Below, piece by piece: positions 10,683 through 28,947 of a stretch of 64,000 nt of DNA. The translations under genes and the position numbers were made by a program. How positions within the stretch are numbered: position 1 is the stretch's first letter; each line of letters starts with the position of its first letter. A model generated the notes under the pieces. The model made no database searches. It worked only from the letters and a program-made list of their open reading frames with translations, and was not told the DNA's origin. Source of the DNA: an uncultured Gammaproteobacteria bacterium (GTDB lineage: Bacteria > Patescibacteriota > Microgenomatia > UBA12405); NCBI GenBank assembly GCA_964503465.1, contig CAZCYZ010000001.1, positions 17,583 to 81,582 of the forward strand, written 5' to 3'.

Positions 10683-10740
10683 TGGGCATGCATGGAGTCG
10701 AACCATGGACCCCTCCGACGTCACGTCGGAGTGCTCTAAC
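10683..10740 (-). pseudogene. Partial tRNA (3' portion: palindromic anticodon-arm position, T-arm, acceptor 3' strand) of a paralog of the adjacent tRNA-Ile
   Basis: The reverse complement reads gagcac-TCCGACGTGACGTCGGA-ggggtc-catgg-ttcgact-ccatg-catgccc-a. No acceptor 5' strand or D-arm is present. The T-arm is identical to tRNA-Ile at 11006..11082. Confidence 0.5.
10705..10740. repeat. 36-bp perfect direct repeat, copy A (contains a 17-bp TCCGACGTCACGTCGGA near-palindrome)
   Basis: atggacccctccgacgtcacgtcggagtgctctaac is identical to 11092..11127. Confidence 0.8.
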
Positions 10741-11005
10741 TAACAAGTTTGCAATAACCATCACGGATTATTTTATCCAGTACAATTTTAGACTTTAATT
10801 TTTTCAGTCTAAATTCGACACTTCTTGCTGCCCGTAAACTTTGACACTTTTGACTAAACACTATCCTCCACGGAATTCCGCTTTTAGTGGCTCTTACTAA
10901 TCCAAGATTATGTTGTTTATTCAATCGTCTCTCTGGATCATTCGAGCTACCTACATAATATTTCCCAGTCAAACCACTCTTTAGGACATAAATATATCCC
11001 ACCAT
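10736..11005 (-). CDS. GIY-YIG nuclease family protein (UPF0213/YhbQ-like, ~89 aa)
   Basis: GYIYVLKSGLTGKYYVGSSNDPERRLNKQHN is a GIY-YIG motif with the conserved Arg and His-Asn. The start was set at the second Met so that it does not overlap the tRNA. The stop codon lies inside direct repeat copy A. Confidence 0.65.
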   Translation of the reverse strand: MVGYIYVLKSGLTGKYYVGSSNDPERRLNKQHNLGLVRATKSGIPWRIVFSQKCQSLRAARSVEFRLKKLKSKIVLDKIIRDGYCKLVS

Positions 11006-11082
11006 TGGTGGGTGTGCATGGATTCGAACCATGGACCCTCGACTTATAAGATCGATGCTCTAACCAACTGAGCTACACACCC
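11006..11082 (-). tRNA. tRNA-Ile (anticodon UAU) with encoded CCA
   Basis: Reverse complement GGGTGTG-TA-GCTC-AGTTGGTTA-GAGC-A-TCGAT-CTTATAA-GTCGA-GGGTC-CATGG-TTCGAAT-CCATG-CACACCC-A-CCA is a full cloverleaf. Confidence 0.7.
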
Positions 11083-11091
11083 AAATTTTAA

Positions 11092-11127
11092 ATGGACCCC
11101 TCCGACGTCACGTCGGAGTGCTCTAAC
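11092..11127. repeat. 36-bp perfect direct repeat, copy B
   Basis: Identical to 10705..10740. Confidence 0.8.
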
Positions 11128-11144
11128 CACCAAGCTACATGCCC
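11093..11144 (-). pseudogene. Partial tRNA (5' portion: acceptor 5' strand, D-arm, palindromic anticodon-arm position) with its own TATAAT promoter
   Basis: Reverse complement gggcatg-ta-gctt-ggtggtta-gagc-ac-TCCGACGTGACGTCGGA-ggggtccat, then diverges. Upstream (minus strand) is ttgatataattcc 13 nt before the tRNA 5' end. Confidence 0.5.
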
Positions 11145-11260
11145 AATACTATGGAATTATATCAATTGTATCCTTCTGGTAGTATAAGTCGGGTGACTTA
11201 ATCCAAGAGAACTTTTATCGCCGTAGGCGAAATATAAATAAAGCGGATAATCGGAACAAA

Positions 11261-11304
11261 GTGACGATATAAGATCGGTGCTCTAACCACCAAGCTACAT
11301 GCCC
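11261..11304 (-). pseudogene. Chimeric partial tRNA (same 5' acceptor/D-arm as 11093..11144 fused to an Ile-like cgatcttata anticodon region) with a duplicated promoter
   Basis: Reverse complement gggcatgtagcttggtggttagagcac-cgatcttatatcgtcac. The upstream flank ttggtataattcc duplicates the promoter-like flank of 11093..11144. Confidence 0.45.
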
Positions 11305-11325
11305 AAAATTAAGGAATTATACCAA

Positions 11326-11580
11326 TTATCGACCTACAATAGCTCTCAGCACTCGCTTTTCCGCTGTAATTAAATTTCCCCCTTCCAACTCCTGCATATC
11401 AGTTCTTACTGTCTGCCATGCTTCTGTCCTGGCTTCCCTCGCCCCCCAGAACTTTCTGGTTCGTTCTGCAGGTTGTCCTATCACTTTTCCATTCTTGTCA
11501 ACTCCTTTGGCGGCCCTGCTCAACTGTTCATTAACTGCCCGAAACTTAGACAGATCACTCTCTAACTTATCACCAGGCAT
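11326..11580 (-). CDS. Hypothetical protein
   Basis: 84-aa ORF between the tRNA fragments and tRNA(CAU). No recognisable motif. Confidence 0.3.
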   Translation of the reverse strand: MPGDKLESDLSKFRAVNEQLSRAAKGVDKNGKVIGQPAERTRKFWGAREARTEAWQTVRTDMQELEGGNLITAEKRVLRAIVGR

Positions 11581-11607
11581 ATTAGTTATAAAAAATTAAC
11601 TTTTAAG

Positions 11608-11681
11608 TAGCAGGGGCGGGATTTGAACCCGCGACCCCAGCGTTATGAATGCTGTGCTCTAACCAACTGAGCTACCCTGCC
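11608..11681 (-). tRNA. tRNA with CAU anticodon (Met, or Ile2 if lysidinylated)
   Basis: Reverse complement GGCAGGG-TA-GCTC-AGTTGGTTA-GAGC-A-CAGCA-TTCATAA-CGCTG-GGGTC-GCGGG-TTCAAAT-CCCGC-CCCTGCT-A. Confidence 0.7.
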
Positions 11682-11759
11682 AAGAATACGAAATTATATC
11701 AACTCACAGCCTTCTTGACTATTTAATCCGTCCCTATGATAAAATTCCCTGAATCTACC

Positions 11760-11829
11760 TGCGGGGTAGTGTACGGCTGCACGTGAGGCTCATAATCTCA
11801 CAGACCTGGTTCAACTCCAGGCCCCGCAA
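11760..11829 (+). tRNA. tRNA with CAU anticodon, 70 nt (Met/fMet candidate), U1-A72 first pair and short D-loop
   Basis: tgcgggg-ta-gtgt-acggct-gcac-g-tgagg-CTCATAA-tctca-caga-cctgg-ttcaact-ccagg-ccccgca-a. It is convergent with the other CAU tRNA. Confidence 0.55.
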
Positions 11830-12184
11830 ATAATTCCCACCACTGTTTCCAAGCTGGCTTCTTTACTACCTCGTTAACTTTGGGGTATAGGTTGAGATTT
11901 TTATCCTCCGGTGGCAACACCAACCAGTAATCATTCGATCCCCCAAGTCCCAGCTTGTCTCTGGCCTCTTGCTCCAAATACGCGCTACTGGTTGAATACT
12001 TAATCCTTTGGGTTAATTTTCGGTTTTCTTCAATCAACTTGTCAATTTTATCCTCATTTTCGGCTACTTTCTTGGTGGCTTCCCACAAATTCCCCCACTG
12101 TCTTATAAGGTTGACCCATATTGATATAGTTACCACCAATAACACCCAATCCAAAATTGACCTAAATAACCCTTTCTTCATCAT
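11830..12184 (-). CDS. FtsB/DivIC-like septum formation initiator (the annotated ORF extends to 11798 and would overlap the tRNA)
   Basis: N-terminal TM helix, coiled-coil (KIDKLIEENRKLTQRI) and EQEARDKLGLGG motif typical of FtsB/DivIC. Confidence 0.45.
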
Positions 12185-12220
12185 TAGCTTGTAGATTGTC
12201 CTAATTTATGTTACTATAAG

Positions 12221-13093
12221 ATGTTTATGCCTGACCTATCATTAGAAAATGCCCTTGGCCTCTTCAGTAATCAACTAGCCAAAAAGGGTAAATCCAACAA
12301 TACCATTGTAGCCTACAAAGGTGATATCAACCAGCTCGCTGCCTATCTCCGTAGCCAGAATATTACCACCATTGATGCTATCGCTCCCAGCCATCTTGAC
12401 AGCTTCAAAAAGCACCTCATGGACAATGGCTACACTGCCAAATCAGTCTCCCGCAAATTAAACTCCATCAAAAATTTCTTCTCTTTTCTTAAGTCTGAGG
12501 GGGTTATTGTCTCCGACCCTTCCAGTACCATCAAACACCCCAAGTACGAAAACGATCTCCCCAAAGTTCTCAAACCCATCGAATATCGCTCTCTTCGTGA
12601 CGCCTGTAGAAATGACCTCCGAGCCACTGCCATCGTCGAGCTTATGCTTCAGGCTGGTCTTCGGATCAAGGAAATCGAAAACCTCCGTCTCGAAGATGTC
12701 AAAGACACCGAAGTCAACATTACTGCCTACGAATCTCATCCTGCCCGCAACGTCCCCCTCAACAACTCTGCCAAATCATCCCTTAAGCGCTATCTCGACG
12801 AGGGCCGTTTTGATTCAAAAGCTAAAAACGTTTTCGTCACCAAAACTGGTCGTCGTCTTTTGGCTCGAAACATTCGTTCCCTTCTTAATCGCTATTTTGA
12901 CAAAGCCGATATTAAGGACATTAAAGTTAATGACCTTCGCAATACCTTTATCGTTTTCCAGCTCAAATCCGGCGTTCCCATTGATGTTGTCTCTCAAGTT
13001 GTTGGTCACAAGCGTATCAGCACCACCGAAAAATACCTCGAACTCATCGATTCCAAAGAGGAATCCAAGGGCATCAAACTAAAAGAGCTTTAA
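12221..13093 (+). CDS. Tyrosine site-specific recombinase (XerC/XerD or integrase family)
   Basis: N-terminal SAM-like core-binding region. C-terminal catalytic motifs LRATAIVELMLQAGLRIKE, NDLRNTF, VGHKRISTTEKYLEL (R..H-R-Y). Confidence 0.8.
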   Translation: MFMPDLSLENALGLFSNQLAKKGKSNNTIVAYKGDINQLAAYLRSQNITTIDAIAPSHLDSFKKHLMDNGYTAKSVSRKLNSIKNFFSFLKSEGVIVSDPSSTIKHPKYENDLPKVLKPIEYRSLRDACRNDLRATAIVELMLQAGLRIKEIENLRLEDVKDTEVNITAYESHPARNVPLNNSAKSSLKRYLDEGRFDSKAKNVFVTKTGRRLLARNIRSLLNRYFDKADIKDIKVNDLRNTFIVFQLKSGVPIDVVSQVVGHKRISTTEKYLELIDSKEESKGIKLKEL

Positions 13094-13117
13094 TTTAATA
13101 ATTAAATTAACCACAAA

Positions 13118-13438
13118 ATGAGCCAACGATTTGTCATTGAGGCCGACAATACCAAATATCCTGCCGCCGTTGTCCGTGCGGCCATTGAAGCTGCCGAGCG
13201 GTACGATGTTTTGCAACGCCCTACTCAAGTTACTTTTGTCCCTGCCCACGATTTTGGTGACGGCAGGTTTGTTGTCCGAGTCACAGTTGATGGCACCGCT
13301 ACGATTGTTCACGACCATTTCCGTTCAGATGGTACTCCAATTGCTAGGGGTACGAGCAGAGTATTGCGAGCCGGAGAAACAAGTAAGTCTCCTGTTCTTG
13401 TTAGTTTCTCCCCCCGGCTCTCTATTTCCTCTAGATAA
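13118..13438 (+). CDS. Hypothetical protein
   Basis: 106-aa ORF with ordinary composition. The overlapping 13131..13658 ORF is low-complexity and probably spurious. Confidence 0.3.
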   Translation: MSQRFVIEADNTKYPAAVVRAAIEAAERYDVLQRPTQVTFVPAHDFGDGRFVVRVTVDGTATIVHDHFRSDGTPIARGTSRVLRAGETSKSPVLVSFSPRLSISSR

Positions 13439-13677
13439 TCAACCCCAAAGGAATCTAAAAGTAGTTACTATGCCCAAAGATCATCTCAAACCCACTCCCG
13501 ACCAAATCCTTCAAAGGCTCACCGTTTTATCTGGTGAAGCCGAAAACAAGTACCTGATGACCAAAGACAAAAAATGGTCTCGTGCCGCCAACAGTATCAA
13601 TCGAGCAGCACAAAAAATCAGCGCAAGTCCCGAATTCCAAGCTCAACGTCCCAAATAATTTTATAATCCCATTTTTA

Positions 13678-14211
13678 TCATCTCATAGCCCCGTAGGCCC
13701 TATCTCGATTCTCCCACCATAAAAGTTCCATAAAGATATTTCTTTTATCTCCTGGGTCAAAATTTGCCTCTAACCACCCTGAGTTATTTTCAACATTTTC
13801 ACTTCCTATCCCCTCCGCCATCCGTCTTAACGCTTCCGCAAAGAACGGTAATTGACCAGCTATACGTATGTCAGGTTCAACCATTGCGTATCTTGCTATG
13901 TCCTGCAATACGAGTGCCGTTGCATCTTCCAAACTCGCCACCGTAGTCACTTCGGTAAACATCTCTGCTGGTAATCTCTGGGCTAATTCCATTCCCCTTT
14001 CCCCAATTTTCCCTACCAACTCCTCGCGACTTGCTATCTTTGACAATTGTCCTCCCCATAGTCCTATGACACCGTTTTCAAATCCTCGCCATCCAGCGTA
14101 AACCCCAGCCTGGGTGGCATATCCGGGAACTCTATCCAAAAAATTTGTAACCGCTACTAATTCTGCAGATTTTGGAGGAAGTCTGTCTTTTGGTGGTTCG
14201 ACCATAATCAC
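13678..14211 (-). CDS. Hypothetical protein (same strand as, and closely spaced with, the downstream ATPase gene)
   Basis: 177-aa ORF with no recognised motif. It sits 31 nt from the start of the 14243..16573 gene. Confidence 0.35.
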   Translation of the reverse strand: MIMVEPPKDRLPPKSAELVAVTNFLDRVPGYATQAGVYAGWRGFENGVIGLWGGQLSKIASREELVGKIGERGMELAQRLPAEMFTEVTTVASLEDATALVLQDIARYAMVEPDIRIAGQLPFFAEALRRMAEGIGSENVENNSGWLEANFDPGDKRNIFMELLWWENRDRAYGAMR

Positions 14212-14242
14212 AGCTTAGCTTATAATCAGCCAAAATACAATC

Positions 14243-16573
14243 CTACAACCTCGCTCGCTTAGCAATTTCACTTTCTACAATCGCCCTTGGCCGGCCGTAT
14301 TTTAATGACGATAATTTCTTAATCATCTCAGCCATTTTGGGGTTCCCTGGTTTCTTTTTCTCCGCCGCCGCCACGTTAATCGAAAATGGTTTTTGTGGTG
14401 TTCCCTTTAGAAGTGTCTTCATATAAATTTCTCCCGTCCCCAAATTTAACAAATCATTCTCTCCAAACTCTGGCGAAAATTGTTTTACCAGGAATCCTGC
14501 ATCCGAAATCCCCACTCTAAAGCTAGCAATTGTTCCCACATTTCCAAAAACGGCATTTTTCACTTCGTCATCCATTTGGGAAATAAACTGGTTGGCCACA
14601 CACAAATTCAAATGATATTTTCGTGCCTCGCTCATAATCACCGCAAAGTCCTGAGTGGCAAAATTTTGAAATTCGTCCACATATAGATAAAAATCTCGCC
14701 GCTCTGCTTCCGGCGTGTCTTGTCGACTCATGGCCGCAATCAAAATTTTGGGAATCAACACCAACCCCAAGAAGGCCGAATTCTCCTCCCCAATTGTCCC
14801 TTTTGCAAGGTTAATTATCAAAATCTTTCCCTCATCCATTGCCTTCCGGAAGTTAAATGACGAAGTCGACTGACCGATTATGTTCCTCATCATCGTATTG
14901 GTAATAAATCGTCCAAACTTTGACACTATATAATCCAGTACTTCCGACTTGTGAAACTCGTTCGTTTGGGCAATCTGATCAGTCCAGTAACGTTTGACCA
15001 TTGGATCAGTTACCTTGGGTAGCATTGCCTGAACATATGATGGATCAGTCAAACATCGTACCACCTCAATAAACGTTGCCCCGGGCTCCATCATCACCGT
15101 CAACATAATATTTCTAATTGCATGTTCAAACCTGGGGCCAACAATCCCCGTTTTATACGGGTCGTACAGTTTATACATCAAGTTAATAATCGAACTTGTC
15201 ACAAAATCTTTTTGCTCGTCTCGATCACATTCCATTACATTAAAGCCCATCGGTCTCTCTGTCATTGACGGGTCAAAATAAATTACATCCTCAACTCTTT
15301 CCGGCGGGATTCGTTCCAGAATACTCTCGTAGGTGTCGTGTGGATCCACAAAGCAAACTCCCTTCCCGGCCTTAATATCCTGTAACGCCATATCGGCCAA
15401 CAGCCACGATTTACCCACTCCCGTTTGTCCCACGATATAAAAATGTCTTTGCCTATCAGTTTCCAGCATGCAAAACTTTTTTGTCACTCCACGGTACAAA
15501 TTATCTCCAATGTACAAGCCCTCCTGCGGGCTATCCACTGGTGCCGCCGCCTTTTTTGCCTTAAGCCAATAAATATTTGGTGTTTCAATTGTCTTGTTTG
15601 GGAAGTGGTAAATTGAGGCCAGTTCGTCGGTTGATAAAATTGTTTTGTTTTTCCACCAAAAAATTACTGGATATTTATAAATAAAATCTGTCATAAACAA
15701 ATGCTTTATCCTTATCTTCCTTCCAGACAATTTGTTCCATGGCGATTCAAGTTGACCAAAACAAGCCTTGATATTTCCAATATTCATTTTGGCCACTTCA
15801 GCCGATGGAGCGCAGGACACAATTCTGATTGCCGTCTCAAAACCAACCTTGCTACACTTTACCTCTACTGCCTCCAATTGTCTTGCGTCTACTTTATAAT
15901 TAGCCTTTTCAGGATTCGCTTCACTCTTTTTGGTTCCACTAATAAACCCTCGTCCACTTTTGGCCCACTCCCCATCAGTTGGTGATATCACCAACTGTAT
16001 CGCTACCGATTCACCCCTATCAAGTTTGGACAACGCTGAGGTAATCGATGATAACGGGTCAGTTGGAATTTCTTTATAAGTTTTTAGTGGATAAAACGGA
16101 GTTTTTTTGAGTCCTAGCCAGGCATATTCTACTTTCCCAGTTTCGGGGTAAATATTGGGTTCATCTACCACCCGTACGTCTGCTCCGGTGTAGGCACTAT
16201 AAATTTGTTTTTCCACCATGTCCTGATACTTTTGCGGCACACTAATATAAAAACGGATATCTTCGGCCGTCCCTACAATTTCCAGGGAGGCACTTTCTTG
16301 AGCCAAAAATCTTTGCAAAAACTTGAATCTAGCCGATTTGTACATACTCCCCAGGGAACTTAGTATTTGCTCCATCGCATCCACCTTCACCTCGTTGTCG
16401 TGTGGTAATGCTACTAATAGAGTCACTAATCCTAATGATTTCTTCTCTCGGTCTTTCCACCTATACCACAAGACCAAAGCATACCCCAATCCTCCCAACA
16501 ATATTCCCACCAGTGTTAATCCCATTAGCATCCAGATTAAGTTAGTCACCACCTGTTCTACTGTCTCAATCAT
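14243..16573 (-). CDS. Membrane-anchored P-loop ATPase of the VirD4/TraG-VirB4/HerA (AAA_10/DUF87) superfamily
   Basis: N-terminal TM helices. Walker A HFYIVGQTGVGKS, Walker B-like FYLYVDEFQNF. Length 776 aa. Domain order resembles type IV coupling/translocation ATPases. Confidence 0.55.
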   Translation of the reverse strand: MIETVEQVVTNLIWMLMGLTLVGILLGGLGYALVLWYRWKDREKKSLGLVTLLVALPHDNEVKVDAMEQILSSLGSMYKSARFKFLQRFLAQESASLEIVGTAEDIRFYISVPQKYQDMVEKQIYSAYTGADVRVVDEPNIYPETGKVEYAWLGLKKTPFYPLKTYKEIPTDPLSSITSALSKLDRGESVAIQLVISPTDGEWAKSGRGFISGTKKSEANPEKANYKVDARQLEAVEVKCSKVGFETAIRIVSCAPSAEVAKMNIGNIKACFGQLESPWNKLSGRKIRIKHLFMTDFIYKYPVIFWWKNKTILSTDELASIYHFPNKTIETPNIYWLKAKKAAAPVDSPQEGLYIGDNLYRGVTKKFCMLETDRQRHFYIVGQTGVGKSWLLADMALQDIKAGKGVCFVDPHDTYESILERIPPERVEDVIYFDPSMTERPMGFNVMECDRDEQKDFVTSSIINLMYKLYDPYKTGIVGPRFEHAIRNIMLTVMMEPGATFIEVVRCLTDPSYVQAMLPKVTDPMVKRYWTDQIAQTNEFHKSEVLDYIVSKFGRFITNTMMRNIIGQSTSSFNFRKAMDEGKILIINLAKGTIGEENSAFLGLVLIPKILIAAMSRQDTPEAERRDFYLYVDEFQNFATQDFAVIMSEARKYHLNLCVANQFISQMDDEVKNAVFGNVGTIASFRVGISDAGFLVKQFSPEFGENDLLNLGTGEIYMKTLLKGTPQKPFSINVAAAEKKKPGNPKMAEMIKKLSSLKYGRPRAIVESEIAKRARL

Positions 16574-16920
16574 TTTTCCTCTTTAAACACTACCTCTCCC
16601 TTTTTAATTTTAATCAATCGCCACACAAAGGTCGACAACCATCTCCCCGCTTCTTCAATTTTTTTCTTAAATCCATCACCAAAAGCCTTCCTGGTTACTG
16701 GCAGTACTATTTTTGGATTTTGCGGTTGTGTTGGGGTCAACAACGGCTGACCGGTGTCATCAGTCACCGTTGTTGTTTGAGCCTTTTCCACTTTTCTCAT
16801 CCAGGTTTCCACTTCTGGTGGCAATTTTTCCTCATCTCTAATCTTGTCAAGATCCCTAATCTCAAATTCTGGTTTCGTTACTTCTACTGGCGTCGTCAAT
16901 CTTTCTTTGCTTTCGGTCAT
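16570..16920 (-). CDS. Hypothetical protein, translationally coupled (4-nt overlap) to the ATPase gene
   Basis: 116-aa charged protein. ATGA overlap with the downstream gene. Confidence 0.35.
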   Translation of the reverse strand: MTESKERLTTPVEVTKPEFEIRDLDKIRDEEKLPPEVETWMRKVEKAQTTTVTDDTGQPLLTPTQPQNPKIVLPVTRKAFGDGFKKKIEEAGRWLSTFVWRLIKIKKGEVVFKEEK

Positions 16921-16941
16921 ATCAAACAGTATAGGCTAACA

Positions 16942-18117: not shown

Positions 18118-18123
18118 ACCACC

Positions 18124-19907: not shown

Positions 19908-19924
19908 ATCTGTTAAATTATACT

Positions 19925-22191: not shown

Positions 22192-22219
22192 GAATAGTAT
22201 CGAAATTTTTGTATAATCA

Positions 22220-22543: not shown

Positions 22544-23568
22544 ATTTTCCCGTATCTCTTTAGCCCTATCTTAATTATCTTTCCAATTATTTCATCATAG
22601 TTTATTCCCGCAGCCATTGCCGATACTACTAGTTTTGACTCATCAGGCGGTGGCAACAGTCCTACCGGGCAATTAATTTCCAGTACATACAATTTTCCCT
22701 CCAGATCCATTCTCATATCAACTCTACTCCAATCTCGACATTCAATTGTTTTAAAAGCCATTTTCGCCAGCATTTCAATCACTTCTTTTAATTGACCATC
22801 CACTACTGCTGGACAAATAGTCGAATCAACTCTATTAGGATTGTTTGGCATATCGTGTATCCATTTCACTTCGTAGCTGTCAATCTTCTCCATTTCCGCT
22901 GGTAGCCCGCTAAAGTCAGATTCGACAATTGGTAACACTTCCAAATCATTCCCATTCCCCAATACTGGTACGGTAAACTCTCGTCCTTCCAAAAATCTTT
23001 CCACTAACGCCGGCTCCTTAAATTTACTAATACTTTCTCTTACCCTTTCTCTTAGTTCGTTTTCATTTCTCACCACCGAATTATTTCTTATCCCAGCACT
23101 CGATCCCTGTCCGTTGGCTTTAACAATTAGTGGGAACGTTAAATCGTCATTTAATCTCTCATTTTCGTCCTCAAACACCTGCCACCCTGGAGTTGGTATT
23201 TTGTAGTAATGCCAGATTTCTTTGGTTCGGTATTTGTTCAAAATCAGTGCCGCCGACATTGGTGACGGTCCCGAATAGGGGATTTTCAATATCTCGGCTA
23301 TCATTGGCACGTGAGCCTCTCTATCAGCACTATCGGTTATCGCCTCGGCAAAATTAAAAATAAAATCAATCGAGCTTCTTTCACTTCTTAATTTTTGATA
23401 CAAATCCTCATTAGCCTCCAGTGGTAACACTTCAAAGTCGTTTTTTCTAATCGCATTTGTTATCGCCTCAATCGTTTTCGGAGTATCAAATTCTGCCTGA
23501 AATTCCGCCTCCGGTTGGTTGAAATCTACCCTATTCTGTTTGAGATTGTAAACAAATGCAATTTTCAT
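22540..23568 (-). CDS. ATP-grasp enzyme (D-alanine--D-alanine ligase-like)
   Basis: MKIAFVYNLK N-terminal domain, and an ATP-grasp core LIVKANGQGSSAGI...ALVERFLEGREFTV...LEINCPVGL. Confidence 0.6.
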   Translation of the reverse strand: MKIAFVYNLKQNRVDFNQPEAEFQAEFDTPKTIEAITNAIRKNDFEVLPLEANEDLYQKLRSERSSIDFIFNFAEAITDSADREAHVPMIAEILKIPYSGPSPMSAALILNKYRTKEIWHYYKIPTPGWQVFEDENERLNDDLTFPLIVKANGQGSSAGIRNNSVVRNENELRERVRESISKFKEPALVERFLEGREFTVPVLGNGNDLEVLPIVESDFSGLPAEMEKIDSYEVKWIHDMPNNPNRVDSTICPAVVDGQLKEVIEMLAKMAFKTIECRDWSRVDMRMDLEGKLYVLEINCPVGLLPPPDESKLVVSAMAAGINYDEIIGKIIKIGLKRYGKI

Positions 23569-23600
23569 AATTCAGTATAGCCCATTCATCATTTATTTAG

Positions 23601-23652
23601 TCCCTCCTTTTCTCCCCCTGCCCTGTCAAGGGAAGGGTCGGGGAAGGGTTTG
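23601..23652. repeat. Dispersed repeat, copy 4 (intergenic, upstream of dnaG)
   Basis: tccctccttttctccccctgccctgtcaagggaagggtcggggaagggtttg. It shares the tccctccttttctc block with copy 1 and the ccctgtcaagggaa block with copies 2 and 3. Confidence 0.6.
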
Positions 23653-23668
23653 ATGTTAAAATTACCCA

Positions 23669-25447
23669 GTGTCGACCCAGGTTGAAGAAATCAAACAAAA
23701 GCTTGACATTGTTAATATTATTTCCCGTTATGTTCCAATCAAAAAACGTGGTCGCCATTTTGTGGCTCCCTGTCCTTTCCACTCCGAAAAAACTCCTTCT
23801 TTTATAGTTTCCCCCGAACTTCAAATTTTTAAATGTTTTGGTTGTGGAAAAGCTGGTGATATTTATAATTTTATTCAAGAATTCGAACGGGTTGATTTTG
23901 GTGAAGCCCTAGAAATTTTGGCCAAAGAAGCTGGTATTACTCTTGAACGTAGTTCTCAATCTTCCCCCGAAGTCTCCCGCCGCAAACGTCTTCTCGACCT
24001 CCACTCTCAGGTTCAAAAATTCTATCACTATCTGCTAACGTCCCACCCCTTGGGTAAACCTGCTCTTGAATACGTTCTCAAACGGGATATTACTTTGTCG
24101 ACTATCAAACTATTTGGTATCGGTTTTTCTCCCGCTAATTCCTCTCTTCTGGTCAATCATCTTCTCAAAAAAGGTTTCAAGGATTCTGAACTTATCGTTT
24201 CTGGAATTTTTGGTCGCAGCCAATACCAATCTCGTTTTTATGACCGTTTTTCCGGCCGTCTCACCTTTCCGCTTTCCGACCCTCGTGGTCAAATCCTTGG
24301 TTTTTCTGGTCGTCTTCTTCCCGGAGCTAAAAGTGATTTAGCCAAATACATCAATTCCCCCGAAACCGATCTTTATCACAAAAGTCAAATAGTTTTTGGC
24401 CTTCATCTGGCTAGGGAATCAATTAGACTTGCCGGCAAAGTAGTTGTCACCGAGGGGGAGTTTGACATGATCGCCCCCTTTCAGGCCGGTATTACTAATA
24501 TTGTCGCCCTCAAAGGCACTGCTTTTACTCTCGATCAGCTCCAGCTTCTTCGTCGTTACACTAACACTTTGGTTTTGGCTCTCGATTCCGATTTTGCTGG
24601 TTCCGCCGCCGCCAAAAGAAGTATCGAGCTAGCCGATTCTCTTGATTTTGATATTCAAGTTTTAGATCTTGGTGGCCGTTACAAAGATCCCGACGAAGCC
24701 GTTCGTGCCGATCCAGATTTTTTTAAAAATCAATTAAATAACCCTTTACCAATCTGGGATTTCTTCATCAATTCTGCCATTAAAAACTATGGCACCGATA
24801 CTGTTACCGGCAAGCGTCAAATATTAAGCGACGTTCTCCCCTCACTTGTCAAAATTACCAATTCCGTTATTCGTTCTGATTATTTTCACAAACTAGCTAG
24901 GTTAATTAATTCTGATTATGACTCGATAGTTCAAGAATCGGCCAAATACTCTCCCAGCCAAACCAAGTCTGCCACCCCAGTTACCACTAAGCCCGTTCCT
25001 GTTTCTCAAGTTGAAAAGCTTGAAGAATATCTCTTAAGTCTTGTTTTGAGCGCCAAAAAACCTCAAGTTTTAGCCAACCGTCTTCGGTCCGATCTCGTAA
25101 ATTTCACTACTACTCGATTCAAAAATCTTGTTGCCCAATTATTGGCTACCGCCAATTTCGACATCGCCACTTTTGGCTCCAACCTTCCTTCCGAGCTCCA
25201 GCCCACTTTTCAGCACCTTTATTTAGCTGGCACCAGTCAGGATTTAGAGTCCAAGGTTCGTCGCCGGGAAATCGCCCAAACCCTGCAACAACTACGGATA
25301 ATTAGTCTCAAAGATCGACTAAACTCACTTGGGGCTCAAATTGCCAACCGCGAATCTGCTGGTCCCGACGTTGATTTTTCCGATCTCGAAACAGAATATA
25401 ATCAACTTCTTTCAAAACTTTCCCAGTTACAATTAGAAAAATACTAG
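23669..25447 (+). CDS. dnaG: DNA primase DnaG
   Basis: CHC2 zinc finger [11 protein letters not shown]...[23 protein letters not shown]...LALDSDFAG. Confidence 0.85.
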
Positions 25448-25467
25448 ATTCTACTGTAGAATACACC

Positions 25468-26553
25468 ATGTCTTCCTCCCTCGACTTTACCAAGATTCGC
25501 CAGCATCTGGTTACTCTCGCCAAAAAGCTTCATTATCTTACCCACGACGAAGTTCTTAAATTAGTCCCCGAGCCGGAAAAATATATTGACGATGTTGACA
25601 ATCTTTTTGATTATCTTTTTGACAAGGGTATCGATGTTTTCGATAAAGTTGAGTCTCAAGAGCTCATTATCAGTGCTGGGTCAAAGACCAATAGTGCCGA
25701 TCTCATGGCTCTTCTAAGCCAAAAAAATAGTGTCGACTCTGTTCGGATGTATCTTAAGGAAATTGGCAAAATCGACCTGTTAACTTTTGCCGAAGAAGTT
25801 TCTTTAGCCCAATCAATCGAACGAGGTTCACCTTCAGCCCGCGAGCAACTCATTAACGCCAATCTTCGTTTGGTTGTCTCTATTGCCAAAAAATATATTG
25901 GCCGTGGTCTAACTTTTCTTGATCTAGTCCAGGAAGGTAATCAAGGCCTAATGCGAGCCGTCGAGAAATTTGATTGGAAAAGGGGATTTAAGTTCTCCAC
26001 TTATGCGACCTGGTGGATTCGTCAGGCTATTACTCGAGCTATCGCCGATCAGGCCAAAACCATCCGTATCCCAGTTCACATGGTCGAGACCATCAATAAA
26101 GTCTACAAAGCCACCAGGGCCCTAACTCAGCGTCTTGGTCACGAACCTAGCACCGATCAAATTGCCCAAGAAGTTGGCATCACTATCGATAAGGTTGAGG
26201 AAATTTATCGTATTTCTCAAGATACTACTTCACTAGCTACCCCGGTGGGGGACGACGAAGATTCATTTCTAGGTGATTTTATCGAAGACACCACCCAACC
26301 TTCTCCCTATGATGAGACCAGCAAAGAGCTACTTCGCGAATCAATCGAGGAAGTACTCGGGAGTCTTGACGAACGTGAAGCCAAAGTGCTAGCTCTTCGT
26401 TTTGGACTTCTGGGCGAAACCCCCAAAACTCTTGAAGAAGTTGGCAAAATTTTTAATGTCACTCGTGAACGTATTCGTCAAATCGAAGCCAAGGCTCTTC
26501 GTAAACTCCGTCATCCCAGCCGTCGCAAGAAATTACAAGACTATCTCGAATAA
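25468..26553 (+). CDS. rpoD: RNA polymerase sigma-70 factor RpoD
   Basis: Regions 2-4: [58 protein letters not shown]. Classic dnaG-rpoD gene order. Confidence 0.9.
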
Positions 26554-26973
26554 TTCCCCATTTCCAAATTCCTTTTTCTCCCCGCTTATCACGTAAGTTA
26601 TCATTGCCAGTACTATCTTGTGGCTAATAATTAGTATCGTTTCGCTGTCTTTATGGTCATGTTTCACATCGTCTACAAACCTGGTCACTCTCCTCTTTAC
26701 CCCTTCGAACTTCTCTTTCTTTGTTTTTGGTGCTATCAATTGGCACATATAAATCGACTGACTATCGTCCTTAACCCTCAAGATTTCGTCTAATGTTTGT
26801 TCACATCTATTAGTCGGCGAGCAATAAATCACCCCAATTTGCTTCCTGATTAATTTTTTTGCCGTTTCTACCGCCTGTCCCACCCCCTGGGCCGTTAGGT
26901 TATTTTCTTCAGCCCTTACCTTATAACCTCTGTTTCTGGCACTTTCTCCGTGTCTTACCAATATTAATTTCAT
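26533..26973 (-). CDS. Histidine phosphatase family protein (phosphoglycerate mutase-like)
   Basis: LVRHGES catalytic RHG motif and a conserved His in IISHKIVL. Confidence 0.6.
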
Positions 26974-27026
26974 CCCAAATTATACCATTGCCAATTTTGG
27001 TCAGCACGTCTACAATTTGCTTAATT

Positions 27027-27377
27027 ATGAAAATCAAATTCACCGTCCTGTCCGCTCTATTTGTTGTTCTTTGTGCTTTGGTTATAAAGTTTAGTCCTCA
27101 AATCGTCACCGCCACTACCGCTCTGTGGTATGACACTGGTACCAAAATCTATAGTCTATCGGCCAACAAAGTTGGTGTCGGTACTTCCAATCCTACCCAG
27201 CAACTTGAAATCAATGGTGGCGTTCGTCTCAATACTAGTACCGCCAGACCCTCTTGCACCACTTCCGTTCGCGGCACCCTTTGGTTTACTTACGGGGTTG
27301 GTACTTCTAAGGATTCTCTCTATCTTTGCGCTCAAGCCGCCGGAACTACTGTTCCTAGCTGGAAAACTATCTACTAG
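27027..27377 (+). CDS. Small secreted hypothetical protein
   Basis: Signal-peptide-like N-terminus MKIKFTVLSALFVVLCALV. Motif VGVGTSNPTQQLEINGGV, as seen in fibre-like repeat proteins. Confidence 0.35.
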   Translation: MKIKFTVLSALFVVLCALVIKFSPQIVTATTALWYDTGTKIYSLSANKVGVGTSNPTQQLEINGGVRLNTSTARPSCTTSVRGTLWFTYGVGTSKDSLYLCAQAAGTTVPSWKTIY

Positions 27378-27991
27378 CAAGACTGCAGTTCTATTCCTAG
27401 TTTTTTTAATTCCTCACCAAACTGTCCAAAGTTTTCGTACACAAAAGCGTTTATTCCCAACTCCTTTGCTCCGGACAACTTATCTTCGCTGTCATCAGAG
27501 TAAACGATTTCATTCGCTTCACATCCAGATCTTTTTATCAATTCCTCAAAAATTCCTTTTTCTGGTTTTAATACCCCAGTCTCGTAAGAGAAAACTGCCG
27601 TGTCAAAATTACTTAGAAATCTAAATCTTTTGTCCAGCCCATCTACTCTGGCTGGAAAATTATTCGAACAGGCTAATATTCTATAGTTATTGTTTTTTAG
27701 CTTATTTATCATTCCTATCACTTCTTCATTCACCTCATACCCCTCAATTAATAGTTCAACTACTTTTTCCCAATTTCCATCTATTTTCCATTCGCTAATG
27801 GCCCATTTCCAAAACTGTTCGTCACTCCAACGACCAGTTTTGTATAGGCTATTCATCTCCTCACTCTTCAAAAACACTCGTCTTGTCTCATCCTCACCCA
27901 CCCCATATTTTTCACTTAAATTTTTTATAAAATTCTCCTTTCCATTTAGAAAATACACCCCATCCAGGTCAAAGGTTATGGCTTTAATCAT
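27374..27991 (-). CDS. HAD-superfamily hydrolase
   Basis: MIKAITFDLDGV motif I (DxDG), and a later GINAFVYENFGQ region. Confidence 0.65.
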   Translation of the reverse strand: MIKAITFDLDGVYFLNGKENFIKNLSEKYGVGEDETRRVFLKSEEMNSLYKTGRWSDEQFWKWAISEWKIDGNWEKVVELLIEGYEVNEEVIGMINKLKNNNYRILACSNNFPARVDGLDKRFRFLSNFDTAVFSYETGVLKPEKGIFEELIKRSGCEANEIVYSDDSEDKLSGAKELGINAFVYENFGQFGEELKKLGIELQSC

Positions 27992-28012
27992 GGGCTATTC
28001 TACCACTGAGAC

Positions 28013-28279
28013 TCATTGAACTATGTCACTTTCAAATACCACTCCGGGTACTGTTATCTGTCCTATTATGTCAATAGTCTCCAGTCTGTGCCCCGTTCCC
28101 CTGGTGGTTGGGCTTCGTGGGTGATTCAGATGGCTGTTCACCGCCATTATTATCGACGCCCTGTCAGTTAGTTTCCCATAGTCATCAGCGATTACTCTTT
28201 GACAAGTAACACAATGTATTCTTCTTTGTGGTCTCCGTTCTTTGTTTTCATCTCCCATAGGTCGTATATTAGCAGACAA
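28013..28279 (-). CDS. Hypothetical protein (possible JAMM/RadC-like remnant)
   Basis: 88-aa ORF. AVNSHLNHPRSPTT weakly resembles the HxHP..S JAMM motif. Confidence 0.2.
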   Translation of the reverse strand: MSANIRPMGDENKERRPQRRIHCVTCQRVIADDYGKLTDRASIIMAVNSHLNHPRSPTTRGTGHRLETIDIIGQITVPGVVFESDIVQ

Positions 28280-28410
28280 ATGTACAAATTAGTGGCTTTT
28301 GGGTCAGTGTTATTCTATAATCAATCCTAACTTTTGCACCTTTTACAACCCACATTACTTCAGTTTTAGTTTAAAACTTCAAATTTTAAATTAAAAATTG
28401 AATAAATATT

Positions 28411-28462
28411 CCCCTGTAGCTCTCCGCCAGCTGGCGGACGGTAGAGGCTCGCCTGTTAAAAT
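28411..28462 (+). pseudogene. Partial tRNA-Asn (5' portion to anticodon loop) with a 16-bp palindrome inserted in the D-loop
   Basis: cccctgtagctc-TCCGCCAGCTGGCGGA-cggtagag-g-ctcgcctgttaa, then diverges. The intact tRNA-Asn is 310 bp downstream. Confidence 0.5.
28416..28444. repeat. 29-bp perfect direct repeat, left copy, containing the 16-bp perfect palindrome TCCGCCAGCTGGCGGA
   Basis: gtagctctccgccagctggcggacggtag is identical to 28718..28746. Confidence 0.85.
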
Positions 28463-28467
28463 TAAGT

Positions 28468-28746
28468 GTGTATATCGTTTACGCGATTTACCACCCAAAA
28501 TCAGGAAAAATCTATATAGGTCAAACAGTCGACCTAGGTAATAGATTAAGGGAACATAACGATCCTAACTGCCAGCGCCATTTATATACCAAGAGGATCG
28601 GGATCGGCTGGGAAGTTCTTTATAAGGAAACTCAGCCGACCAGACAGCTTGCCTTAAAGCGAGAAAAACAGTTAAAAAGTTATCAAGGCAGATTGTTCAT
28701 TAAAAAACACATTACAGGTAGCTCTCCGCCAGCTGGCGGACGGTAG
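28468..28746 (+). CDS. GIY-YIG nuclease family protein (UPF0213/YhbQ-like, 92 aa, GTG start)
   Basis: VYIVYAIYHPKSGKIYIGQTVDLGNRLREHN matches GIY-YIG with the conserved Arg and His-Asn. The C-terminal 9 codons are encoded by the right direct repeat, and the stop is the last triplet of that repeat. Confidence 0.65.
   Translation: MYIVYAIYHPKSGKIYIGQTVDLGNRLREHNDPNCQRHLYTKRIGIGWEVLYKETQPTRQLALKREKQLKSYQGRLFIKKHITGSSPPAGGR
28718..28746. repeat. 29-bp perfect direct repeat, right copy
   Basis: Identical to 28416..28444. It is followed by a degenerate anticodon-stem-like sequence ggcaccgcctgtaat. Confidence 0.85.
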
Positions 28747-28772
28747 GGCACCGCCTGTAATACTCAATACAT

Positions 28773-28845: not shown

Positions 28846-28947
28846 CAAGCAAAATATATCCTAAAGATACGTAACAAATGTTTCTATGGTATGGCAAGAG
28901 TGACAAGTATATAATGTGGTTAATCAATAATTAAATTACTCAAATCC

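What the first reader, a model, noticed from the sequence alone, without database searches (positions are those of the whole stretch)
10714..28740. Shared design of the two GIY-YIG loci suggests an undescribed tRNA-associated element family
Both loci combine four things. (i) An ~90-aa stand-alone GIY-YIG protein with the Arg...(E/Q)HN core. (ii) Perfect direct repeats of 29-36 bp composed of tRNA-gene sequence. (iii) A 16-17 bp palindrome beginning TCCG and ending CGGA inside the repeat, replacing or interrupting a tRNA stem-loop (anticodon arm in locus 1, D-loop in locus 2). (iv) An intact tRNA immediately adjacent. Stand-alone UPF0213 GIY-YIG proteins have no established function. A role as a homing-type nuclease that recognises a hairpin placed in tRNA genes (analogous in logic to IS200/IS605 TnpA hairpin recognition or to intron-less homing endonucleases) would be new. 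A tyrosine recombinase (12221-13093) lies 1 kb from locus 1 and could alternatively explain att-like repeats.
Basis: inference. Interest (0 to 1): 0.8.

Follow-up and report, generated by a model that had tools for sequence, protein, structure and literature searches.

The report
Minimal nuclease cassettes nested in tRNA genes
Two tiny nuclease genes in this ultra-small bacterium each sit among broken, hairpin-interrupted copies of one tRNA gene beside one intact copy. The same design recurs in about a hundred related loci, so it is a real and apparently undescribed, probably selfish, element family whose hairpin has no known role.

Summary
Two stand-alone GIY-YIG genes (10736-11005 minus strand; 28468-28746 plus strand) are the only ones in the window. 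Each is flanked by perfect 36-bp or 29-bp repeats of tRNA sequence that carry a 19-nt or 16-nt palindrome, and each abuts an intact tRNA. The design generalises. In 78 of 80 genome loci of the second protein's family, TCCGCC-loop-GGCGGA lies 7-63 nt upstream of the start codon. It sits inside a pseudo-copy of the 5' part of the tRNA that follows the gene. That tRNA is tRNA-Asn in 59 loci and tRNA-Lys in one. In 46 of 61 loci the stop codon lies inside the tRNA. Relatives of the first protein show the design on tRNA-Glu and tRNA-Thr, and a distant relative on tRNA-Gly. Tandem arrays, gene-less remnants and target switches point to a mobile or recombinogenic cassette. The closest known analogue is phage SegB, a GIY-YIG homing endonuclease that cuts and amplifies tRNA genes. 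Unlike SegB, these proteins are a bare 83-aa SLX1/UPF0213-like domain. The integrase/att alternative is refuted. Hairpin recognition is untested, and the hairpin's role and mode of spread remain unexplained. I found no prior description.

The parts
11268..11304 (-). Pseudo-tRNA-Ile copy A: positions 1-37 (to anticodon loop CTTATA) of a GGGCATG-type tRNA-Ile(UAU), preceded by a TATAAT box at 11316-11321
   Evidence: Read from the sequence. Part of a 50-nt repeat family shared with copy B at 92% identity (D1). Its anticodon stem matches the 'empty' tRNA-Ile(UAU) of relative L207.
11218..11230 (-). Possible degenerate third hairpin, TCGCC-TAC-GGCGA, in the spacer after copy A (low confidence)
   Evidence: Read from the sequence. 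It resembles TTCGCCTACCGGCGAA, which replaces the acceptor arm of the pseudo-tRNA-Asn in L301. No GIY-YIG remnant was detected in this spacer.
11092..11144 (-). Pseudo-tRNA-Ile copy B: positions 1-26, then the palindrome, the variable loop and the start of the T stem. It has its own TATAAT box at 11156-11161.
   Evidence: (D1, D4).
11100..11118 (.). Palindrome P1, CTCCGACGTSACGTCGGAG, replacing the anticodon arm of copy B
   Evidence: It folds as an 8-bp stem.
11006..11082 (-). Intact tRNA-Ile(UAU) of GGGTGTG type with encoded CCA. It is a different allele from the pseudo-copies.
   Evidence: ARAGORN. Rfam 74.2 bits. By eye it differs from the pseudo-copies in the acceptor stem, D arm and T loop.
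10998..11012 (-). Hairpin CCCACCAATGGTGGG, formed by the tRNA 3' end and the first codons of the ORF, followed by a T-rich tail (terminator-like)
10736..11005 (-). GIY-YIG gene 1 (89 aa from the ATG that directly follows CCA). Its stop codon TAG lies in the D-arm sequence of pseudo-copy C.
   Evidence: Pfam PF01541, E 3e-12. ORF list. Sequence.
10683..10747 (-). Pseudo-tRNA-Ile copy C: positions about 10-26, the palindrome, the variable loop, the T arm and the 3' acceptor strand CATGCCC plus A73. It has no 5' acceptor strand and no CCA.
   Evidence: (D4, D5).
10713..10731 (.). Second copy of palindrome P1
28410..28459 (+). Pseudo-tRNA-Asn 1: positions 1-13, the palindrome in place of the D-loop bases, then the D stem and anticodon stem-loop up to CTGTTAA
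   Evidence: The same layout is seen in 78 of 80 related loci.
28423..28438 (.). Palindrome P, TCCGCCAGCTGGCGGA
28468..28746 (+). GIY-YIG gene 2 (92 aa, GTG start). Its last codons and stop are encoded by pseudo-tRNA-Asn 2, giving the SSPPAGGR tail.
   Evidence: Pfam, E 9e-13. 275 homologous clusters. Predicted fold with pLDDT 90.
28712..28763 (+). Pseudo-tRNA-Asn 2: a mutated acceptor, D stem, palindrome and anticodon-like region. I read it as the left end of a second cassette that has lost its ORF. It folds into one long hairpin.
   Evidence: Folding z-score -4.1. Comparable ORF-less units occur in L023, L064 and L140.
28725..28740 (.). Second copy of palindrome P
28764..28772 (+). TCAATACAT: a likely remnant of the 3' end of a deleted GIY-YIG ORF (compare ...AATACATT before the tRNA in L023)
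   Evidence: Inference.
28773..28846 (+). Intact tRNA-Asn(GUU), the working copy

Best explanation
Both loci are cassettes of one widespread family of selfish, free-standing, minimal GIY-YIG nuclease genes that live inside tRNA genes of Patescibacteria (CPR).

Shown:
- A cassette consists of a dead copy of part of the target tRNA interrupted by a family-specific GC-rich hairpin, a roughly 83-90-aa nuclease gene on the tRNA strand, and one regenerated intact tRNA.
- The dead copy, on both sides of the hairpin, is made of the local target tRNA.
- The gene is under purifying selection.
- The hairpin arms are conserved while synonymous sites of the gene are strongly diverged or saturated.
- The loci carry tandem arrays, gene-less remnants and extra hairpin-bearing tRNA fragments.

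Inferred:
- The nuclease breaks or nicks tRNA-gene DNA.
- Recombinational repair between the short repeated tRNA segments then copies the cassette into an unoccupied allele (homing) and, when misaligned, produces partial tRNA duplications, arrays and deletions. This is what phage SegB has been shown to do in tRNA clusters.
- The cell tolerates the cassette because one tRNA copy is always restored.
- The cassette is hard to lose because the essential tRNA is transcribed through it. The ORF overlaps the tRNA 5' end or directly follows its CCA, and the mRNA looks leaderless.
- The hairpin is a cis element of the cassette, probably acting as a stem-loop, that marks or inactivates every surplus tRNA copy. 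Whether the nuclease binds it is unknown.
For: Architecture of the second protein's family:
- 78 of 80 genome loci have CCGCCAGCTGGCGG (at most 2 mismatches) 7-63 nt upstream of the start codon, inside a 5' tRNA fragment.
- 59 loci have an intact tRNA-Asn after the ORF and one has tRNA-Lys. The stop codon lies inside the tRNA in 46 loci, and in 37 of these it is exactly U8-A9-G10.
- The loci without a detected tRNA are contig ends, an N gap, or tRNA-Asn split by a group I intron.
- The fragment repeats the downstream tRNA exactly over at least 10 nt in 54 of 78 loci.
- Seven further metagenome places follow the same layout.

Other targets:
- tRNA-Lys in L067. The pseudo-copy is tRNA-Lys sequence on both sides of the hairpin.
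- tRNA-Glu with a different 20-nt palindrome (L085), and tRNA-Thr (L082).
- tRNA-Gly with a distant UPF0213-type gene and the same hairpin (L133).
- tRNA-Ile in this window.

Dynamics:
- Two divergent genes in tandem (L042).
- Two identical genes in tandem (L036).
- ORF-less units (L023, L064, L140, and window 28712-28772).
- Hairpin-bearing fragments downstream of the intact tRNA (L015, L035, L079).
- A tRNA-Gln split by an intact tRNA-Gln, with the hairpin at the junction (L131).
- In locus 1 the intact tRNA-Ile is a different allele from the broken resident one.

Protein:
- Catalytic Tyr, Tyr, Gly, Arg, His and Glu are invariant.
- Median pN/pS is 0.23.
- The predicted fold has pLDDT 90 and best matches Slx1, UPF0213 and the I-TevI catalytic domain.

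Expression:
- A -10-like box ends 5-7 nt before the ATG in 20 of 80 loci. A Shine-Dalgarno-like motif occurs in only 11 of 80.

Precedent:
- SegB cleaves tRNA genes, homes, and drives recombination-dependent segmental amplification (PMC2330249; PMC13096335).
Against: - No cleavage site is known.
- The intact tRNA beside the gene keeps the sequence that the hairpin disrupts in the dead copies, so simple 'insertion destroys the target' immunity does not hold.
- The protein has no DNA-binding domain that could give a long recognition site.
- I found no pair of close relatives with occupied and empty alleles. The same protein on up to 24 contigs (P0030, P0102) showed one conserved tRNA block with strain-level flank variation, not new insertion sites.
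- Protein similarity does not clearly conflict with host taxonomy.
- The hairpin is separated from the ORF by target-derived sequence, so one contiguous mobile segment does not explain it.
Confidence: 0.55

Rival explanations
1. Resident host gene, not mobile. A small nuclease gene became fixed upstream of tRNA-Asn early in the radiation and is co-transcribed with it. The pseudo-tRNA with its hairpin is simply its evolved promoter or leader, derived from an old tandem tRNA duplication. Arrays and remnants are ordinary local duplication and decay.
For: The position and strand are the same across many CPR classes. The gene is under purifying selection. Identical proteins sit in one conserved tRNA block in many samples. 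No empty allele was found. A -10 box appears to have been made out of the anticodon-loop sequence.
Against: The same design has been rebuilt from other tRNAs (Lys, Glu, Thr, Gly, Ile), each time with a pseudo-copy of that particular tRNA. Divergent genes occur in tandem. Hairpin-bearing tRNA fragments also lie downstream of the intact tRNA and in loci with no nuclease gene. Only 207 confirmed loci were found among 185,579 species representatives, though I could not normalise this to the number of CPR genomes. A leader would not need arms that stay unchanged while the rest of the leader diverges.
Confidence: 0.2
2. The hairpin is itself the mobile unit. It would be a miniature palindromic element that inserts into loops of structured DNA or RNA genes and is mobilised in trans by the SLX1-like nuclease. 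This resembles REP elements and their RAYT transposase, or mitochondrial GC clusters. On this view the tRNA pseudo-copies are its preferred landing sites.
For: The hairpin is flanked on both sides by target sequence and sits at different positions: D loop, D arm, anticodon arm and T arm. Hairpins are nested inside hairpins (L020, L032, L076, L004, L301). It also occurs in loops of group I introns and at the apex of a hairpin after rpoD. The identical hairpin accompanies a distant nuclease family. The loop varies in sequence and length while the arms stay fixed.
Against: Copy number is very low. This 64-kb window holds four hairpins, all beside the nuclease genes. No mechanism is known that would copy a 16-nt hairpin. 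Most metagenome matches of the 16-mer look like chance or coding matches. There is no target-site duplication around the hairpin.
Confidence: 0.15
3. The repeats are att sites left by integrase-mediated insertion of an unrelated element into a tRNA gene.
For: A tyrosine recombinase gene (12221-13093) lies about 1 kb from locus 1. tRNA genes are classic integration sites (general knowledge).
Against: The recombinase has XerC/D-type domains. It keeps the same DivIC-recombinase-TrwB-like gene order in a Woesebacteria relative whose called genes include no GIY-YIG gene. Only 1 of 85 related loci contains even a weak integrase-like ORF within 2.5-3 kb. The 'inserted' segment is only 300-390 bp. In most loci the duplicated part is the 5' part of the tRNA, not the 3' part.
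Confidence: 0.02
4. Chance resemblance or an assembly artefact.
For: Repeats can be mis-assembled, and many MAG contigs break at these loci.
Against: An independent assembly is identical. The design recurs in about 100 loci from different studies.
Confidence: 0.01

Closest known systems
Phage T4/T6 SegB, a free-standing GIY-YIG homing endonuclease in the tRNA gene cluster (PMC2330249; PMC13096335)
   Same: It is a GIY-YIG nuclease gene embedded among tRNA genes. It cleaves tRNA-gene DNA, spreads together with flanking tRNA genes, and drives recombination-dependent tandem amplification of tRNA segments. That activity would account for the arrays and partial tRNA copies seen here.
   Different: SegB belongs to the phage homing endonucleases, which are much longer than the 83-aa proteins here (matching homing-endonuclease profiles are 162-574 positions long; T4 SegB is about 220 aa from my own knowledge). 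It recognises a 27-bp site, presumably through sequence outside its catalytic domain. The proteins here are a bare catalytic domain of the UPF0213/SLX1 type, are cellular, and are absent from 2.9 million viral contigs. They overlap the tRNA itself and always come with a hairpin-interrupted pseudo-tRNA. No such hairpin is described for SegB.
UPF0213 / YhbQ-type stand-alone GIY-YIG proteins and the SLX1 nuclease domain
   Same: These are the best sequence matches among solved structures (EF2693 at 1e-8, BH0048 at 3e-8, SLX1 at 2e-6). They are also the best structural matches (Slx1: TM-score 0.64, rmsd 2.0 A over 72 columns). Size and single-domain build agree.
   Different: The bacterial UPF0213 proteins are deposited as hypothetical proteins. 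SLX1 is a structure-specific nuclease that needs SLX4 (general knowledge). My searches found no tRNA linkage or hairpin described for them.
Intron-encoded GIY-YIG endonucleases such as I-TevI
   Same: The catalytic motif and fold are shared. Both are linked to a conserved host gene.
   Different: There is no ribozyme: an Rfam search at permissive E-value finds no intron at either window locus. There is no DNA-binding domain. The host tRNA is restored by duplication, not by splicing.
Genomic islands that integrate into tRNA genes and rebuild the tRNA from a carried copy
   Same: Direct repeats of tRNA sequence flank the insert, and one functional tRNA is regenerated.
   Different: There is no integrase. 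The insert is only about 300 bp. Usually the 5' part of the tRNA is duplicated. The leftover copy carries a hairpin.
Hairpin-dependent elements: IS200/IS605 with TnpA, and REP elements with RAYT (general knowledge)
   Same: A short conserved hairpin is genetically linked to a small nuclease-type gene. The arms are constrained and the loops are free.
   Different: The enzyme class differs (HUH versus GIY-YIG). REP elements occur in hundreds of copies, whereas here there are two to a few per locus. No paired element ends are evident.
GIY-YIG ORFs in non-intron insertion sequences of CPR rRNA genes (PMC11270868)
   Same: Same group of organisms and the same protein superfamily, inserted in structured RNA genes without an intron ribozyme.
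   Different: Those sit inside rRNA genes. No flanking pseudo-copies or hairpins were reported. I did not examine them.

Membership tests
GIY-YIG nuclease superfamily (Pfam PF01541) | Sequence profile match above the curated cut-off | tested here: met
   46.9 and 48.7 bits against a cut-off of 22.6.
GIY-YIG nuclease superfamily (Pfam PF01541) | Conserved catalytic residues: Tyr of GIY, Tyr and Gly of YIG, Arg, His and the metal-binding Glu | tested here: met
   Y5, Y16, G18, R26, H30 and E66 are invariant in 41 and in 37 sequences. Their spacing matches what I recall of I-TevI (Y6, Y17, G19, R27, H31, E75).
GIY-YIG nuclease superfamily (Pfam PF01541) | The beta-beta-alpha-alpha-beta-alpha fold | tested here: met
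   AlphaFold model with pLDDT 90 and element order E-E-H-H-E-H-H. Top PDB matches are Slx1, UPF0213 BH0048 and the I-TevI catalytic domain.
GIY-YIG nuclease superfamily (Pfam PF01541) | Nuclease activity | not testable with these tools
   Requires biochemistry.
UPF0213 / SLX1-like (URI-type) stand-alone GIY-YIG proteins | A single domain of about 80-100 aa, closest in sequence and structure to UPF0213 and SLX1 | tested here: met
   Most family members are 77-92 aa long.
Free-standing homing endonuclease (Seg type) | Cuts the allele that lacks the gene at a specific site | not testable with these tools
   No cleavage data. The intact tRNA next to the gene is unaltered.
Free-standing homing endonuclease (Seg type) | Presence/absence polymorphism at one locus among close relatives | tested here: inconclusive
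   A distant relative has an unoccupied tRNA-Ile(UAU). ORF-less remnants exist. No close occupied/empty pair was found.
Free-standing homing endonuclease (Seg type) | A catalytic domain joined to a DNA-binding domain that gives a long recognition site | tested here: not met
   The protein is 83-92 aa and the whole length is the catalytic domain.
Free-standing homing endonuclease (Seg type) | Evidence of movement: new targets, repeated invasion, decay | tested here: met
   A tRNA-Lys target within the same protein family. tRNA-Glu, Thr, Gly and Ile in related families. Divergent tandem genes. Remnants.
Integrase-borne tRNA-targeting island | A tyrosine or serine recombinase encoded in the element | tested here: not met
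   1 weak hit in 85 loci. The window's recombinase is a syntenic Xer-like gene.
IS200/IS605 or REP-RAYT hairpin systems | An HUH (Y1) transposase gene | tested here: not met
   The only linked ORF is GIY-YIG.
IS200/IS605 or REP-RAYT hairpin systems | Many dispersed copies of the hairpin in the genome | tested here: not met
   There are four copies in 64 kb, all at the two loci. In about 345 kb of related loci, nearly all copies outside the cassettes lie in tRNA-Asn fragments or its intron.
Group I intron with an endonuclease ORF in a tRNA gene | A ribozyme core flanking the ORF | tested here: not met
   No Intron_gpI match at either window locus, even at E-value 10. Real group I introns occur separately in tRNA-Asn of related loci.

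The most novel reading that the evidence does not exclude
A bare SLX1-like GIY-YIG domain recognises a specific stem-loop (arms TCCGCC/GGCGGA; stem base CTCCG/CGGAG shared by both window families). Through structure-specific cutting, it drives both its own copying into tRNA genes and the placement of that hairpin into every surplus tRNA copy. That would be a hairpin-guided homing or transposition mode not known for GIY-YIG enzymes. It would also assign a function to part of the uncharacterised UPF0213 family.
Probability: 0.2. Interest if true: 0.9.

Novelty: new variant of a known kind. Interest (0 to 1): 0.72.

Why it matters
- It gives a concrete, testable biological context to a large group of stand-alone GIY-YIG (UPF0213-like) proteins. 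The group comprises about 1,580 clusters at 50% identity with E below 1e-10, and these proteins are annotated only as 'GIY-YIG nuclease family protein' or 'putative endonuclease'.
- It shows that single-copy, essential tRNA genes in the reduced genomes of Patescibacteria host a compact parasite-like cassette. The cassette rebuilds its target and is transcribed with it.
- It extends the SegB principle, in which a nuclease remodels tRNA loci, from phages to cells.
- It exposes a short hairpin conserved across the whole radiation, with no known function and no known way of being copied.
- Practically, these cassettes break MAG assemblies at tRNA-Asn, produce mis-called ORFs with tRNA-encoded tails (SSPPAGGR, VAQR), and could confuse tRNA annotation.

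Tried and rejected
- Integrase/att explanation: rejected.
- Group I intron at the window loci: rejected.
- A decayed GIY-YIG gene in the 98-nt spacer of locus 1: no signal.
- Palindrome as a dispersed genome-wide repeat: not in this window.
- Unbiased metagenome scan of the 16-mer: mostly unrelated contexts, about half inside long ORFs, with flanks no more complementary than chance. It therefore could not measure P(nuclease | palindrome).
- Palindrome as a strict marker of one protein family: rejected, because the same 16-mer accompanies a distant UPF0213-type gene on tRNA-Gly.
- The position of the hairpin within the pseudo-tRNA as a clean clade marker: only partly true.
- Scan for the locus-1 palindrome: no hit in 224 fetched loci. 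Three viral contigs matched, one with 10 copies upstream of genes, probably unrelated.
- Looking for new insertion sites through identical proteins on many contigs (P0030, P0102): the same tRNA block each time.
- Close relatives of the window's own flanking gene: only the same organism and one relative at 45% identity, so no empty tRNA-Asn allele could be compared.
- PHROGs, NCBIfam and PADLOC: only motif-level hits to homing endonucleases.
- Literature searches for the element, the palindrome string and YhbQ: nothing relevant.
- Idea that the hairpin derives from the tRNA-Asn acceptor stem: half of P1 equals nt 1-8 of some tRNA-Asn genes, and the stem base plus the next G equals the acceptor end plus discriminator. 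This is suggestive but post hoc, and it fails for the tRNA-Glu palindrome. I left it open.

Full report
**Observation.** The window looks like a Patescibacteria (CPR) genome. The closest relatives of its proteins are named Shapirobacteria, Woesebacteria and similar. It has five tRNA genes and exactly two GIY-YIG ORFs.

Locus 1, read on the minus strand, runs as follows.
- A TATAAT box and the 5' half (positions 1-37) of a GGGCATG-type tRNA-Ile(UAU) at 11268-11304.
- A 98-nt spacer.
- A duplicate of the promoter and 5' part at 11092-11144. In this copy the anticodon arm is replaced by CTCCGACGTGACGTCGGAG, and the copy breaks off in the T stem.
- Eight bases.
- An intact tRNA-Ile(UAU) of a different allele (GGGTGTG type) at 11006-11082.
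- Directly after its CCA, the ATG of an 89-aa GIY-YIG ORF (11005-10736).
- The rest of the broken tRNA, from the D arm to A73, again with the palindrome, at 10747-10683.

The two palindrome-bearing pieces overlap by a perfect 36 bp.

Locus 2, read on the plus strand, runs as follows.
- tRNA-Asn positions 1-13, TCCGCCAGCTGGCGGA in place of the D-loop bases, then the D stem and anticodon stem-loop (28410-28459).
- A 92-aa GIY-YIG ORF (28468-28746).
- A second, mutated fragment with the same palindrome (28712-28763), which supplies the ORF's last codons.
- Nine bases that resemble the end of another ORF.
- The intact tRNA-Asn (28773-28846).

The perfect repeat here is 29 bp. In 64 kb the only GC-rich perfect hairpins are these four and one at the tRNA-Ile/ORF junction. 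A second, independent assembly is identical over locus 2.

**Generality.** The locus-2 protein belongs to a large family: 275 clusters at 90% identity found by word search, and 1,583 clusters at 50% identity with E below 1e-10. All named members are Patescibacteria. Several homologues carry tails or heads such as SSPPAGGGR or VAQR. These are translations of the palindrome or of the tRNA 5' end, and they first suggested that the design is shared.

A scan of one genome per species found 207 confirmed loci, of which I examined the best 80.
- In 78, CCGCCAGCTGGCGG (at most two mismatches) lies 7-63 nt upstream of the start codon, inside a fragment of a tRNA 5' part. The other two carry variants with the same arms.
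- ARAGORN finds an intact tRNA-Asn(GUU) on the same strand after the ORF in 59 loci and tRNA-Lys in one.
- The loci without a call are contig ends, an N gap, or tRNA-Asn genes split after CTGT by a group I intron.
- In 46 of 61 loci the stop codon is inside the tRNA. In 37 of these it is exactly U8-A9-G10, so the ORF ends ...ATT CCN NNG TAG.
- The upstream fragment repeats the downstream tRNA exactly over at least 10 nt in 54 of 78 loci. The repeat often includes 3-10 nt upstream of tRNA position 1.
- Seven further metagenome places of two homologues follow the same canonical layout.
- Sixteen places of two other homologues, all with tRNA-Asn at or just after the ORF where sequence continues, include a palindrome-ORF-palindrome-tRNA version like locus 2.

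**Other targets.** One member of the same family (L067) sits on tRNA-Lys(UUU). The segment from -13 to +60 of that gene is duplicated. The upstream copy carries the identical palindrome in place of positions 24-33, and the ORF follows the T loop.

The locus-1 protein has few relatives.
- P0004 lies between tRNA-Glu positions 1-12 plus a 20-nt palindrome (CCTGCCTGCCGGCAGGCAGG) and the intact tRNA-Glu.
- P0003 lies between an intact tRNA-Thr and a 3' fragment of it.
- P0002 has no tRNA nearby.

A metagenome contig (L133) shows an intact tRNA-Gly, then a tRNA-Gly pseudo-copy with the same 16-mer palindrome, then a distant UPF0213-type GIY-YIG gene, then a tRNA-Gly 3' fragment. The common rule is that a small GIY-YIG gene sits in a nest of partial copies of one tRNA gene. 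Exactly one copy is intact, and the surplus copies are truncated, interrupted by a GC-rich hairpin, or both.

**Signs of turnover.** The related loci show several kinds of rearrangement.
- Two divergent genes in tandem, each ending in the same tRNA 5' sequence (L042).
- Two identical genes in tandem (L036).
- Units that have lost the ORF (L023, L064, L140, and the second unit of locus 2).
- Hairpin-bearing tRNA-Asn fragments downstream of the intact gene (L015, L035, L079).
- A tRNA-Gln split by another intact tRNA-Gln, with the hairpin at the junction and no nuclease gene (L131).

In locus 1 the working tRNA-Ile differs from the broken one in its acceptor stem, D arm and T loop. This fits an incoming tRNA copy replacing the resident one. 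A Woesebacteria relative has a plain, unoccupied tRNA-Ile(UAU).

**The protein.** The catalytic residues Tyr, Tyr, Gly, Arg, His and Glu are invariant. The median pN/pS is 0.23 over 62 pairs. The model (pLDDT 90) is a single GIY-YIG domain with no appendage. The nearest solved relatives are UPF0213 proteins, the SLX1 nuclease domain and the I-TevI catalytic domain. No close relative occurs in 2.9 million viral contigs.

**Expression (inference).** Cassettes always lie on the tRNA strand. The ORF overlaps the tRNA, or starts directly at its CCA, so the tRNA has no room for a promoter of its own and must be transcribed through the cassette. A -10-like box ends 5-7 nt before the ATG in 20 of 80 loci, and Shine-Dalgarno-like motifs are rare. 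This suggests leaderless mRNAs. In locus 1 the mRNA 5' end could be made by tRNA 3' processing. RNase P cleavage of tRNA-Asn would remove the stop codon, which might keep nuclease levels low. That last point is speculative.

**The hairpin.** The arms TCCGCC/GGCGGA are unchanged across the radiation, while synonymous sites of the gene are strongly diverged or saturated (pS 0.4-0.9 in most pairs). The loop varies in sequence and length (AGCT, AACT, AGTT, AGCC, GGCT, AAAC, TGA) and can hold a second hairpin. The base pair just outside the core co-varies (C-G, G-C, A-T). This fits a stem-loop better than a spaced double-stranded site, but it does not prove it.

The hairpin is flanked on both sides by target-derived sequence. 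It replaces between 3 and roughly 27 nt, at different places in the tRNA copy, and it is never in the working tRNA. The locus-1 palindrome differs from the locus-2 palindrome but shares the stem base CTCCG/CGGAG. I cannot explain how it gets there or what it does. The options are set out in the rival explanations and the novel reading.

From the palindrome side the association is weak. Of 83 occurrences of the 16-mer in metagenome contigs, about six lie in tRNA-like sequence, one has a nuclease gene beside it, and a second contig carries one further away. A database of that size should also yield many chance matches.

**Comparison with what is known.** The integrase alternative fails. No intron ribozyme is present. 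The nearest documented system is phage SegB. It is a GIY-YIG enzyme in the T4/T6 tRNA cluster that recognises a tRNA T-loop motif, homes together with its flanking tRNA genes, and causes recombination-dependent segmental amplification (PMC2330249; PMC13096335). That mechanism would produce the arrays, partial duplicates and remnants seen here.

The differences from SegB are these: a bare SLX1/UPF0213-type domain, a cellular host, physical overlap with the tRNA, and the obligatory hairpin-marked pseudo-copy. A 2024 survey noted GIY-YIG ORFs in non-intron insertions of CPR rRNA genes but did not describe this design (PMC11270868). My searches found no description of it or of the palindrome string.

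**Verdict.** The element family is real and, as far as I can tell, undescribed. The homing-type reading is plausible by analogy and by the signs of turnover, but it is unproven (confidence 0.55). Hairpin recognition by the nuclease is untested. I class the finding as a new variant of a known kind, with an unexplained and potentially novel hairpin component.

Noticed in passing
L010, L011, L016, L025, L039, L055, L072 (about 2760-3380 in each locus); by eye also L047, L060, L065: Group I introns (Rfam RF00028) split tRNA-Asn after CTGT in the anticodon loop in many CPR genomes. L039 and L040 have GIY-YIG ORFs 98% identical in nucleotide sequence, yet only L039 has the intron, so the intron is polymorphic between close relatives. 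L055, L060 and L072 carry an extra ORF between exon 1 and the ribozyme core.
   Followed up: partly
window 11006-11082; L207 3463-3537: The genome decodes AUA with a tRNA-Ile(UAU) rather than a lysidine-modified CAU tRNA. The same is true of the Woesebacteria relative.
   Followed up: no
window 11600-12200 and 28770-29980; L207 1-2000: In the relative, the homologue of the 341-aa gene (window 28948-29973) lies directly between the tRNA-Met pair and DivIC/XerC. In the window these are 17 kb apart, and both breakpoints coincide with the two GIY-YIG/tRNA loci. GC skew also shifts from about -0.25 to about 0 between 28 and 36 kb. The tRNA/nuclease loci may be rearrangement breakpoints.
   Followed up: partly
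window 10998-11012: A 7-bp-arm hairpin (CCCACCAATGGTGGG) formed by the 3' acceptor strand plus CCA of tRNA-Ile and the first codons of the nuclease gene, followed by a T-rich tail. It scores as terminator-like and could throttle read-through into the nuclease gene.
   Followed up: partly
window 28711-28762: The second tRNA-Asn pseudo-copy has changed its acceptor sequence to ATTACAGG, which now pairs with CCTGTAAT in the former anticodon loop. This gives one long hairpin (-26 kcal/mol, z-score -4.1).
   Followed up: partly
L226 (IMG/VR contig, 14 kb): Ten copies of the exact 17-mer TCCGACGTSACGTCGGA, the locus-1 palindrome core, lie just upstream of genes in a 57% GC viral contig. It looks like a phage regulatory or terminator repeat and is probably unrelated.
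   Followed up: partly
L001-L080 (contig ends): Many MAG contigs end within about 100 nt after the GIY-YIG gene or inside tRNA-Asn. The repeated tRNA pieces evidently break short-read assemblies. Gene callers also extend the ORFs through tRNA or palindrome sequence, giving tails such as SSPPAGGR and VAQR.
   Followed up: partly
L003 1687; L047 2838; L011 1147: The same palindrome, or a one-mismatch variant, also sits at the apex of a hairpin just after rpoD and in loops of the tRNA-Asn group I intron. So it occasionally occurs in other structured sequences.
   Followed up: partly
window 1-28000: Strong and persistent negative GC skew (-0.15 to -0.36) runs over tens of kilobases regardless of gene strand. 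It recalls the strand composition disparity named in the title of a paper on a Microgenomates genome (PMC7143001), which I did not read.
   Followed up: no
L005, L012, L020, L029, L034, L035 (80-130 nt after tRNA-Asn): Downstream of the tRNA-Asn terminator, many loci contain a T-loop-like GGTTCGAA motif. These may be further unannotated tRNA fragments or a neighbouring tRNA gene.
   Followed up: no
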